From assembly GCF_003334765.1 (NCBI RefSeq), contig NZ_QOWT01000124.1: a stretch of DNA of 431 nucleotides; one strand, 5' to 3'. The position numbers were made by a program, and so were the translations under genes. Position 1 is the first letter of the stretch. The number at the start of each line of letters is the position of its first letter. A model generated the notes under the pieces. That model saw only the letters and a list, made by a program, of their open reading frames with translations. It searched no databases and was not told the origin of the DNA. Source of the DNA: Escherichia coli. GTDB lineage: Bacteria > Pseudomonadota > Gammaproteobacteria > Enterobacterales > Enterobacteriaceae. Shown here piece by piece: positions 1 through 431 of the stretch.

Positions 1-30
1 GCCGGATAAGGCACTTGTGCCGCATCCGGC
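1..30 (+). repeat. REP element, Y-like type (palindrome complete; the expected 5' GTAG lies outside the window)
   Basis: gccggat-aa-ggcac-tt-gtgcc-gc-atccggc: 7-bp outer stem (1-7 with 24-30), 2x2 internal loop, 5-bp inner stem (10-14 with 17-21), 2-nt loop. Identical to the copies at 93-122 etc. that are preceded by GTAG. Strand is given in the GTAG-at-5' convention. Confidence 0.8.
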
Positions 31-37
31 AATCAAT

Positions 38-73
38 GCCTGATGCGACGCTGTCGCGTCTTATCAGGCCTAC
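38..73 (-). repeat. REP element, Z2-like type, with 3' CTAC on the + strand (GTAG at 5' on the - strand)
   Basis: gcctgat-gc-gacgc-tgtc-gcgtc-tt-atcaggc-ctac: 7-bp outer stem (38-44 with 63-69), 2x2 internal loop, 5-bp inner stem (47-51 with 56-60), 4-nt loop, then CTAC (70-73). Near match to the Z2 palindromic-unit consensus GCCTGATGCGACGCTGGCGCGTCTTATCAGGCCTAC as I recall it. Confidence 0.85.
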
Positions 74-88
74 AACTATTGCCGACCT
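74..88. other. 15-nt tail-to-tail linker between CTAC of the Z2-like REP and GTAG of the next Y-like REP (also at 166-180, 258-272, 350-364)
   Basis: aactattgccgacct recurs identically in every unit. It sits between the CTAC and GTAG ends, consistent with the longer inter-unit motif of BIME-2 clusters; the 7-nt head-to-head linker aatcaat is at 31-37, 123-129, 215-221, 307-313 and 399-405. Confidence 0.6.
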
Positions 89-122
89 GTAGGCCGGATA
101 AGGCACTTGTGCCGCATCCGGC
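89..122 (+). repeat. REP element, Y-like type, with 5' GTAG
   Basis: gtag + gccggataaggcacttgtgccgcatccggc. Imperfect palindrome with outer and inner stems as in copy 1. Closely resembles the reverse complement of the classical E. coli REP consensus (GCCGGATGCGGCG...CGCCTTATCCGGCCTAC), recalled from memory. Confidence 0.85.
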
Positions 123-129
123 AATCAAT

Positions 130-165
130 GCCTGATGCGACGCTGTCGCGTCTTATCAGGCCTAC
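130..165 (-). repeat. REP element, Z2-like type, with 3' CTAC on the + strand
   Basis: Identical to 38-73. Confidence 0.85.
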
Positions 166-180
166 AACTATTGCCGACCT

Positions 181-214
181 GTAGGCCGGATAAGGCACTT
201 GTGCCGCATCCGGC
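181..214 (+). repeat. REP element, Y-like type, with 5' GTAG
   Basis: Identical to 89-122. Confidence 0.85.
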
Positions 215-221
215 AATCAAT

Positions 222-257
222 GCCTGATGCGACGCTGTCGCGTCTTATCAGGCCTAC
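222..257 (-). repeat. REP element, Z2-like type, with 3' CTAC on the + strand
   Basis: Identical to 38-73. Confidence 0.85.
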
Positions 258-272
258 AACTATTGCCGACCT

Positions 273-306
273 GTAGGCCGGATAAGGCACTTGTGCCGCA
301 TCCGGC
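273..306 (+). repeat. REP element, Y-like type, with 5' GTAG
   Basis: Identical to 89-122. Confidence 0.85.
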
Positions 307-313
307 AATCAAT

Positions 314-349
314 GCCTGATGCGACGCTGTCGCGTCTTATCAGGCCTAC
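314..349 (-). repeat. REP element, Z2-like type, with 3' CTAC on the + strand
   Basis: Identical to 38-73. Confidence 0.85.
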
Positions 350-364
350 AACTATTGCCGACCT

Positions 365-398
365 GTAGGCCGGATAAGGCACTTGTGCCGCATCCGGC
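365..398 (+). repeat. REP element, Y-like type, with 5' GTAG
   Basis: Identical to 89-122. Confidence 0.85.
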
Positions 399-405
399 AA
401 TCAAT

Positions 406-431
406 GCCTGATGCGACGCTGTCGCGTCTTA
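406..431 (-). repeat. REP element, Z2-like type, truncated by the window end (first 26 of 36 nt)
   Basis: gcctgatgcgacgctgtcgcgtctta matches the first 26 nt of the 38-73 copy; the remainder lies beyond the window. Confidence 0.75.

What the first reader, a model, noticed from the sequence alone, without database searches (positions are those of the whole stretch)
1..431. BIME-2-like REP cluster of at least 9-10 palindromic units fills the whole window and runs off both edges
The window holds 4.7 copies of a 92-bp unit, each made of a Y-like and a Z2-like REP in inverted orientation with alternating 7-nt and 15-nt linkers. The first REP lacks its GTAG and the last REP is cut at nucleotide 26, so the array very likely continues on both sides. 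BIME-2 clusters in E. coli are known to be built by tandem amplification of exactly this kind of doublet; a large copy number at one locus is the notable point here.
Basis: partly seen in the sequence, partly recalled or inferred. Interest (0 to 1): 0.45.

Follow-up and report, generated by a model that had tools for sequence, protein, structure and literature searches.

The report
Known E. coli rhaA–rhaD REP array
The window is a long, perfectly uniform copy of a well-known E. coli repeat cluster (a BIME-2 array of REP hairpins, REP299 in strain K-12) that lies between the rhamnose genes rhaA and rhaD and varies in copy number between strains, so it is real but ordinary.

Summary
All 431 nt are a perfect 92-nt tandem repeat (4.7 copies, 100% identity). 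Each unit is a Y-type REP, a 7-nt linker, an inverted Z2-type REP and a 15-nt linker.

The interpretation as a BIME-2 cluster is also right. Every defining feature I could test is met. The unit, including its locus-specific 15-nt linker, maps to the rhaA–rhaD spacer inside the E. coli rhaBAD operon. EcoCyc annotates the K-12 allele as REP299a–i (9 REPs). The window's + strand is antisense to the operon.

In 5,426 complete E. coli genomes this spacer is a variable-number repeat. It ranges from one Y REP (0.4 unit) to 21 REPs (10.4 units), in steps of exactly 92 bp. Common alleles have 0.4–4.4 units. Alleles of 5.4 units or more are rare (about 1% of a sample), but several are already sequenced. 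No complete genome holds the window exactly (best 99.5%). Its 431-nt perfect stretch barely exceeds the longest one seen (429 nt).

The array must continue past the window, to at least 11 REPs, but the source was not found, so this is inferred. Strain-to-strain copy-number variation of BIME-2 is published. Nothing new in kind; low interest.

The parts
1..30 (+). Y-type REP no. 1, hairpin stem-loop only; its 5' GTAG lies before the window
   Evidence: Exact match to the Y stem string; same fold as the other Y copies
31..37 (.). Short S linker AATCAAT between the Y and Z2 REPs
38..73 (-). Z2-type REP no. 1, inverted (an iREP on the + strand, ending in CTAC; its GTAG is on the - strand)
   Evidence: hairpin of -21.4 (+) and -21.9 (-) kcal/mol as RNA
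74..88 (.). 15-nt tail-to-tail linker AACTATTGCCGACCT, specific to the rhaA-rhaD locus
   Evidence: The 46-nt junction probe has 2 places in K-12-type genomes, one shown at the rha locus, and at most 7 places in any genome
89..122 (+). Y-type REP no. 2 (GTAG plus hairpin)
   Evidence: Rfam naRNA4 hit at 92-162, 76.6 bits
123..129 (.). S linker
130..165 (-). Z2-type REP no. 2
166..180 (.). 15-nt linker
181..214 (+). Y-type REP no. 3
   Evidence: Rfam hit at 184-254
215..221 (.). S linker
222..257 (-). Z2-type REP no. 3
258..272 (.). 15-nt linker
273..306 (+). Y-type REP no. 4
   Evidence: Rfam hit at 276-346
307..313 (.). S linker
314..349 (-). Z2-type REP no. 4
350..364 (.). 15-nt linker
365..398 (+). 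Y-type REP no. 5
   Evidence: Rfam hit at 368-431, cut off at its 3' end
399..405 (.). S linker
406..431 (-). Z2-type REP no. 5, cut by the window edge after 26 of 36 nt

Best explanation
The window is the inner part of a BIME-2 array, made of tandem [Y REP - 7-nt S linker - inverted Z2 REP - 15-nt linker] doublets. It occupies the spacer between rhaA and rhaD inside the E. coli rhaBAD(M) operon. It is an expanded, unusually uniform allele of the element EcoCyc calls REP299a-i in K-12. The window's + strand is antisense to the operon.

Shown here:
- the anatomy of the units;
- the locus;
- that the locus is a variable-number repeat changing in whole 92-bp doublets, from 1 to 21 REPs;
- that only the terminal Y REP, 5 nt after the rhaA stop codon, is present in every allele inspected at sequence level.

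Inferred origin. The doublet was amplified locally and recently. The mechanism was either replication slippage or unequal recombination between identical 92-bp units, or the REP-associated transposase TnpA_REP, whose recognition and cleavage motifs are present in every unit.

Inferred mode of action, from established work on REP/BIME elements and not tested at this locus:
1. In the rhaBAD mRNA (the window's - strand) each REP forms a stable hairpin. These block 3'-to-5' exonucleases, stabilising the upstream rhaBA segment, and can attenuate read-through into rhaD-rhaM.
2. The REP next to the rhaA stop codon can stall terminating ribosomes.
3. On DNA, the Y REPs of BIME-2 are preferred DNA gyrase binding and cleavage sites.

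The extra doublets are probably accessory or nearly neutral, because about a quarter of the genomes sampled manage with a single REP.
For: Anatomy.

Y/Z2 identity: the Rfam naRNA4 model (a Y-linker-Z2 doublet) hits at 76.6 bits against a gathering score of 59.5. The BIME-2 definition is in PMC3333891.

Locus:
- The best matches, 99.5% over all 431 nt, lie between rhaD and rhaA with both genes on the opposite strand.
- K-12 has 4.4 units at NC_000913.3 4094273-4094722.
- EcoCyc's REP299a-i is described as located 'within an operon (rhaBAD)' (bioRxiv 10.1101/2024.07.17.603846).
- A 46-nt probe across the 15-nt linker is found in 2,571 genomes, with median 2 and maximum 7 places per genome. K-12-type genomes have 2 places, and the one shown is at the rha locus.
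- There is no phage match, and no match above 93% in the plasmid collection.

Variable-number repeat:
- Flank-anchored inserts are 41, 133, 225, 317, 409 and 593 nt, that is 41 + n x 92. One further allele measures 685 nt.
- Intergenic lengths of 910 to 1002 nt give 9.4 to 10.4 units.
- Genomes whose 1,300-nt flanks are 100% identical to K-12 carry 0.4, 2.4 or 4.4 units.
- Neighbouring units share the same rare variants (units 3=4 and 5=6 in strain 100181; 6=7 in D8; a two-unit block in PSJ-29). These are footprints of stepwise duplication.

The minimal allele is one Y REP.

TnpA_REP motifs are in every unit: GTAG + REP, TGCC|TGAT and GGCC|TACA (against PMC3333891).

Published roles:
- Gyrase cleavage sites are over-represented in BIME-2, and y is cut more often than z2 (PMC6379681).
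- The introduction and reference list of PMC12306157 summarise or cite mRNA stabilisation, transcription attenuation and ribosome stalling by REPs.

The window has no ORF longer than 46 aa, no sigma-70-like promoter and no intrinsic terminator.
Against: - The source genome was not found. There is no 100% match in 5,426 complete E. coli genomes, and exact scans of GTDB representative genomes, JGI metagenomes and IMG/VR returned nothing. The locus is therefore assigned from unit and linker identity, not from flanking sequence.
- No expression, RNA-stability or gyrase data for this locus were examined, so every functional step is borrowed from other REP/BIME loci.
- The wide copy-number range, down to a single REP, argues against a strong dosage-dependent function for the doublets.
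- Slippage and TnpA_REP cannot be told apart with these data.
Confidence: 0.9

Rival explanations
1. The extra doublets do nothing for the host. The array is a nearly neutral repeat that drifts in length by slippage or TnpA_REP activity, and only the single terminal Y REP is functional.
For: About 25% of sampled genomes have one REP only. Copy number differs between genomes whose 1,300-nt flanks are identical. About 15% of sampled genomes have replaced the doublets with an unrelated ~185-nt insert.
Against: This differs from the best explanation only on function. BIME-2 elements as a class bind gyrase and attenuate transcription (PMC6379681; references cited), and more hairpins should strengthen such effects. 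Nothing was measured at this locus either way.
Confidence: 0.35
2. The array is a cluster of naRNA-type small RNA genes. Like naRNA4 from REP325, their transcripts would bind HU and help condense the nucleoid.
For: Rfam RF02564 (naRNA4) hits every doublet above the gathering score on the + strand (76.6 vs 59.5 bits). REP325 is also a Y/Z2 array of six repeats (PMC4550694).
Against: - The above-threshold orientation (+) is antisense to the rhaBAD operon. On the transcribed strand the score is 53.2 bits, below the gathering score.
- No promoter-like site on either strand of the window.
- The Y-Z2 linker is 6 nt shorter than in the model (alignment).
- The hit reflects shared Y and Z2 REPs, which any BIME-2 would give.
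Confidence: 0.07
3. The copy number and perfect uniformity in the window are an assembly artefact. A short-read assembler may have unrolled or collapsed a tandem repeat, so 4.7 identical units would not reflect the real genome.
For: The window is pure repeat with no unique flank. Its exact sequence is absent from 5,426 finished genomes and from three other collections. A perfect stretch of this length exceeds typical short-read lengths (general knowledge).
Against: Finished genomes hold real arrays of up to 10.4 units and a 429-nt perfectly periodic stretch in strain FG31-1. Adding one canonical unit to the FG31-1 allele would contain the window exactly.
Confidence: 0.1
4. It is some other kind of repeat: a CRISPR array, a protein-coding repeat, or a run of intrinsic terminators.
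For: Regularly spaced palindromes look superficially like CRISPR repeats.
Against: The 'spacers' are identical in every unit. The longest ORF is 46 aa, and the 92-nt period is not a multiple of 3. No hairpin is followed by a T-tract. The sequence matches REP Y/Z2 elements at a known E. coli locus.
Confidence: 0.01

Closest known systems
REP299a-i, the BIME-2 array between rhaA and rhaD in E. coli K-12 MG1655 (EcoCyc annotation; NC_000913.3 4094273-4094722)
   Same: Same locus. Same 92-nt doublet, with the same S linker (AATCAAT) and the same 15-nt linker. K-12 unit 3 is identical to the window's unit.
   Different: K-12 has 4.4 units (9 REPs), four of them with variant positions, and its longest perfect stretch is 183 nt. 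The window shows at least 4.7 identical units, implying at least 5.4 units (11 REPs) and more probably 7.4 or more.
Expanded rhaA-rhaD alleles in RefSeq complete genomes: FG31-1 and relatives (6.4 units), PSJ-29 (7.4), D8 (9.4), and 100181, Combat11I9 and L26 (10.4)
   Same: Same array. FG31-1 matches the window at 99.5% and holds three fully canonical units plus most of a fourth.
   Different: None contains five consecutive canonical Y units. The larger arrays are broken up by unit variants.
REP325 / naRNA4 (Rfam RF02564), the BIME-2 array between yjdM and yjdN
   Same: Also tandem Y/Z2 doublets. The covariance model hits the window above threshold on the + strand (PMC4550694).
   Different: Different locus. 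The Y-Z2 linker there is about 13 nt rather than 7 nt, and the inter-unit spacer differs. REP325 lies downstream of yjdM and is transcribed in the naRNA sense, whereas here that orientation is antisense to the operon. HU binding is unknown for this locus.
REPINs and their RAYT (TnpA_REP/YafM) partner
   Same: An inverted REP pair about 90 nt long that can also fold as one long hairpin (+ strand, -44.1 kcal/mol). GTAG and the TnpA_REP cleavage motifs are present (PMC3333891).
   Different: The two REPs are of different types (Y and Z2), so the long hairpin is imperfect. The presence of tnpA_REP in the source genome is unknown.

Membership tests
BIME-2 (Gilson/Bachellier classification, as restated by Ton-Hoang et al. 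2012, PMC3333891) | Built from y-type and z2-type REPs (not z1) | tested here: met
   Rfam's naRNA4 model, whose consensus is a Y-linker-Z2 doublet, aligns to both hairpins of every unit at 76.6 bits against a gathering score of 59.5. The K-12 homologue is annotated as REPs. My own recalled Y and Z2 consensus sequences agree, but that is memory, not a test.
BIME-2 | REPs alternate in orientation (REP and iREP, head-to-head then tail-to-tail) | tested here: met
   GTAGGCC starts on the + strand at 89, 181, 273 and 365 (Y), and on the - strand at + strand coordinates 67, 159, 251 and 343 (Z2).
BIME-2 | A short S linker between REP and iREP, not the long L linker with an IHF site that marks BIME-1 | tested here: met
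   The linker is 7 nt, AATCAAT. There is no exact match to the IHF consensus WATCAANNNNTTR, only a one-mismatch match that overlaps the linker.
BIME-2 | Occurs as multiple tandem copies whose sequence is well conserved within a locus and whose number varies between strains | tested here: met
   4.7 identical copies in the window. The homologous locus ranges from 0.4 to 10.4 units.
REP (repetitive extragenic palindrome) | A 30-40-nt imperfect palindrome with an internal mismatch in the stem and a conserved GTAG 5' of the hairpin foot | tested here: met
   The predicted hairpins have a 7-8-bp lower stem, an internal mismatch, a 4-5-bp upper stem and a 4-nt loop.
REP | Extragenic location | tested here: met
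   No ORF over 46 aa in the window. The homologous arrays lie between the annotated rhaD and rhaA genes. This rests on homology, because the window's own flanks are unknown.
naRNA4 / CssrE (Rfam RF02564) | Sequence and structure match above the family's gathering score on the strand that is transcribed | tested here: not met
   The + strand scores 76.6 bits (above the 59.5 gathering score), but it is antisense to rhaBAD. The operon-sense strand scores 53.2 bits, below the gathering score.
naRNA4 / CssrE | A discrete HU-bound RNA that promotes nucleoid condensation | not testable with these tools
   Would need RNA-seq or HU RIP data from a strain carrying this allele.
RAYT/TnpA_REP substrate (REPIN-type doublet) | GTAG + REP recognition element with CT-containing cleavage sites in the partner iREP and in the linker | tested here: met
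   TGCC|TGAT (5 sites on +) and GGCC|TACA (4 sites on each strand). They match the type I and type II sites defined in PMC3333891.
RAYT/TnpA_REP substrate | A cognate tnpA_REP gene in the same genome | not tested
   The source genome is unknown. Ton-Hoang et al. found the gene in 74 of 110 E. coli/Shigella genomes.
DNA gyrase site (BIME-2 class) | Quinolone-induced gyrase cleavage in the Y REPs in vivo | not testable with these tools
   Shown for other BIME-2 elements such as sucC-sucB and tldD-yhdP (PMC6379681). The rha array is not mentioned in the text I read.

The most novel reading that the evidence does not exclude
The rhaA-rhaD array could be a natural tuning knob. Because it sits inside the operon and changes in whole doublets (1 to 21 hairpins) faster than the flanks accumulate substitutions, its copy number could set the ratio of rhaBA to rhaD-rhaM expression, or local supercoiling during rhamnose induction. 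The perfectly uniform allele in this window could then mark a lineage with ongoing TnpA_REP-driven expansion.
Probability: 0.12. Interest if true: 0.45.

Novelty: already known. Interest (0 to 1): 0.12.

Why it matters
It matters little as a discovery. The element (REP299, a BIME-2), its building blocks, its tandem amplification and its variation between strains are all described.

The survey adds some practical points:
- This spacer is a clean variable-number repeat, 41 + n x 92 bp with n from 0 to 10. It could serve as a typing marker.
- It is a trap for short-read assembly.
- The alleles form a natural series for testing whether the number of REP hairpins inside an operon changes downstream expression or gyrase recruitment.
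- The rhaBAD promoter region is widely used in expression systems, so strain differences in the native operon's spacer may interest people who engineer that locus.

Tried and rejected
Searches for the source contig:
- The canonical 92-nt unit, then a degenerate version covering all observed variants, against the GTDB representative genomes: 0 hits each.
- A 189-nt two-unit pattern against JGI metagenomes and IMG/VR: 0 hits.
- I did not use the second metagenome scan. Short-read metagenome contigs would not resolve the array.

Other contexts ruled out:
- Plasmids: only chromosome-sized or low-identity records, 93% or less.
- Phages: no match.

Rejected readings:
- Coding repeat.
- Promoter or intrinsic terminator.
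- BIME-1 or IHF site.
- CRISPR, because the spacers are identical.

Method and literature limits:
- I considered ranking genomes by coverage of a long synthetic array to find the largest alleles. I dropped this because the tool joins overlapping diagonals, as seen, where 409-nt arrays 'cover' all 431 nt. I used flank-anchored spans instead.
- The inserts of about 200 nt turned out not to be 2.4 units. They are one REP plus an unrelated insert, so I reclassified them.
- The 1993 paper that sequenced the rha genes (PMC206615, recalled from memory) is not held.

Full report
**Observation.** The 431-nt window is one perfect tandem repeat. TRF reports period 92, 4.7 copies, 100% matches and no indels. 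A direct check shows w[i]=w[i+92] at every position.

Each unit reads GTAG-GCCGGATAAGGCACTTGTGCCGCATCCGGC (a Y-type REP), then AATCAAT (7 nt), then GCCTGATGCGACGCTGTCGCGTCTTATCAGGC-CTAC (a Z2-type REP in the opposite orientation), then AACTATTGCCGACCT (15 nt). That includes the missing GTAG of the first REP and the cut after nucleotide 26 of the last one.

Each REP is predicted to fold as an imperfect hairpin: a 7-8-bp lower stem, an internal mismatch, a 4-5-bp upper stem and a 4-nt loop. Energies are -19.6 to -21.9 kcal/mol as RNA and -10.6 to -12.9 as DNA, well beyond shuffled controls. The window has no ORF over 46 aa, no sigma-70-like promoter and no hairpin followed by a T-tract.

**What it is.** Rfam's only significant family is naRNA4 (RF02564). 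Its consensus is the Y-linker-Z2 doublet of the E. coli BIME-2 element REP325. Every doublet in the window scores 76.6 bits on the + strand against a gathering score of 59.5.

Ton-Hoang et al. 2012 (PMC3333891) define BIME-2 by four features: z2 plus y REPs, inverse orientation, a short S linker, and multiple tandem copies whose sequence is conserved within a locus and whose number varies between strains. All four are met here. The BIME-1 hallmark, a long linker with an IHF site, is absent. There is only a one-mismatch match to the IHF consensus.

**Where it is.** Megablast against 5,426 complete E. coli genomes finds no exact copy. The best matches reach 99.5% over the full 431 nt. All eight top hits that I opened lie between rhaD and rhaA, with both genes on the strand opposite to the window's + strand.

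K-12 MG1655 has the same array with 4.4 units in its 450-nt rhaA-rhaD spacer. A 2024 preprint names it REP299a-i, following EcoCyc, and notes that it lies within the rhaBAD operon.

The window has no unique flank, so I tested whether the 15-nt linker is specific to this locus. A 46-nt probe across the linker occurs in 2,571 genomes, with median 2 and at most 7 places per genome. K-12-type genomes have two places, and the one shown is at the rha locus. This fits confinement to this one array. Plasmid and phage collections give nothing relevant.

**Copy number across strains.** I used queries made only of the unique flanks and read the span in each genome.
- The inserts are 41, 133, 225, 317, 409, 593 and 685 nt, that is 41 + n x 92.
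- Opening further hits gave intergenic lengths of 910 nt (strain D8, 9.4 units) and 999-1002 nt (Combat11I9, L26 and 100181, 10.4 units = 21 REPs).
- Two evenly spaced samples of 59 genomes each gave these rough shares: 25% with 0.4 unit; 16% with 1.4; 16% with 2.4; 3% with 3.4; 25% with 4.4 (inflated by K-12 laboratory strains); and 15% with one REP plus an unrelated ~185-nt insert.
- In those samples, 5.4 units or more appeared only once in 118. One search lists at least 23 such genomes in all.

The minimal allele is a single Y REP in an 82-nt spacer. In every allele I inspected at sequence level, that terminal Y REP is kept. Its stem ends 5 nt from the rhaA stop codon, and the first REP lies 43 nt from the rhaD start codon.

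Genomes whose 1,300-nt flanks are 100% identical to K-12 carry 0.4, 2.4 or 4.4 units. Copy number therefore changes faster than the flanks accumulate substitutions.

**The window's allele.** Laying the arrays out unit by unit shows a few variable positions:
- the Y upper stem and loop at unit positions 17, 20 and 22, where the paired positions 17/22 occur as A-T, G.T and G-C;
- position 8;
- linker positions 82 and 92.

Neighbouring units often share the same variant, as expected from stepwise duplication. The longest perfectly periodic stretch in the inspected arrays for which I computed it is 429 nt (FG31-1). The window's 431 nt needs five consecutive canonical Y units, one more than FG31-1 has. 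Adding one canonical unit to the FG31-1 allele (6.4 to 7.4 units) would contain the window exactly.

Every sequenced array begins with CGACCC-GTAG-Y and ends with a terminal Y followed by GTGTTTACCC. The window has neither end and stops inside a Z2. So the real array must hold at least 11 REPs (5.4 units), and probably more. This is inference. The source was not found in GTDB representatives, JGI metagenomes or IMG/VR. If the window comes from a short-read assembly, its copy number could be unreliable.

**How it most likely works.**

*Shown.* The structure, the position inside the operon, the antisense orientation of the window, and the variable-number behaviour.

*Inferred from established REP/BIME biology.*
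1. In the rhaBAD mRNA (the window's - strand) the hairpins act as barriers to 3'-exonucleases. This stabilises the upstream rhaBA segment and may attenuate read-through into rhaD-rhaM. The basis is Higgins and colleagues 1988, Khemici and Carpousis 2004 and Espeli et al. 2001, as cited in PMC12306157.
2. The REP 5 nt after the rhaA stop codon lies within the range reported to stall terminating ribosomes. The summary is; the 15-nt criterion is quoted.
3. On DNA, the Y REPs of BIME-2 are preferred gyrase cleavage sites, independent of transcription (PMC6379681).

*Origin.* Both candidate mechanisms predict changes in whole units. One is slippage or unequal recombination between identical 92-bp units. 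The other is the REP-associated transposase TnpA_REP, whose requirements are in every unit: GTAG + REP, and the cleavage motifs TGCC|TGAT and GGCC|TACA. I cannot separate them.

A quarter of the genomes sampled keep only one REP, so the extra doublets are probably accessory or nearly neutral.

**Rivals.**
- An naRNA-like small-RNA cluster is unlikely. The above-threshold orientation is antisense to the operon, the sense strand scores below threshold (53.2 bits), and no promoter-like site is present.
- CRISPR, coding-repeat and terminator readings are excluded.
- An assembly artefact in the copy number cannot be excluded. It is not needed, because comparable arrays exist in finished genomes.

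**Verdict.** The element is already known, both as a class and at this locus, and copy-number polymorphism of BIME-2 is published. The window is an upper-tail, unusually uniform allele that is not present verbatim in RefSeq complete genomes. Interest is low.

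Noticed in passing
L011 654-692 and L012 654-692 (rhaA-rhaD spacer of strains HUM3355 and MSB1_4I): The minimal allele of this locus is a single Y REP in an 82-nt spacer. This terminal Y REP, 5 nt from the rhaA stop codon, is the only part kept in every allele I inspected. It is probably the functionally constrained piece.
   Followed up: partly
One search, hits H161-H170 (E. coli complete genomes): Genomes whose 1,300-nt rhaD/rhaA flanks are 100% identical to K-12 carry 0.4, 2.4 or 4.4 units. The array therefore changes length faster than the flanks pick up substitutions.
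   Followed up: partly
L010 about 835-1000 (strain M8; about 15% of sampled genomes share this 200-nt insert size): A different allele of the spacer. It has one Y REP plus an unrelated ~185-nt GC-rich insert with its own inverted repeats (ccctcaccctaaccctctcccc...ggagagggccggggtgagggtg). It resembles another E. coli intergenic repeat family, which I did not identify.
   Followed up: no
Unit positions 17 and 22 (window 105 and 110, and the same positions in each repeat); variants in L003-L009: The paired bases of the Y upper stem occur as A-T (window), G.T and G-C in different units and strains. This is a compensatory series that supports the hairpin. The G.T state is a wobble pair only on the + strand.
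   Followed up: partly
Window 31-43, 123-135, 215-227, 307-319, 399-411: AATCAATGCCTGA, the S linker plus the start of Z2, is one mismatch from the IHF consensus WATCAANNNNTTR. It occurs 5 times against 0.17 expected from shuffles. The mismatch is in the TTR part. It is probably not a functional IHF site, since BIME-2 is defined as lacking one.
   Followed up: no
Window 89-180, + strand: As a single strand, one whole doublet can also fold as one long imperfect hairpin in which Y pairs with Z2 (-44.1 kcal/mol). This is about as stable as the two separate REP hairpins and resembles a REPIN.
   Followed up: no
last rows (NZ_CP193896.1, strain BW25113): This record matches only the rhaD-side flank. 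That is consistent with the engineered rhaBAD deletion of BW25113-type laboratory strains (from memory). 23 of 5,426 genomes have no match to the flanks at all.
   Followed up: no
The full window could therefore not be used as an exact probe.
   Followed up: no
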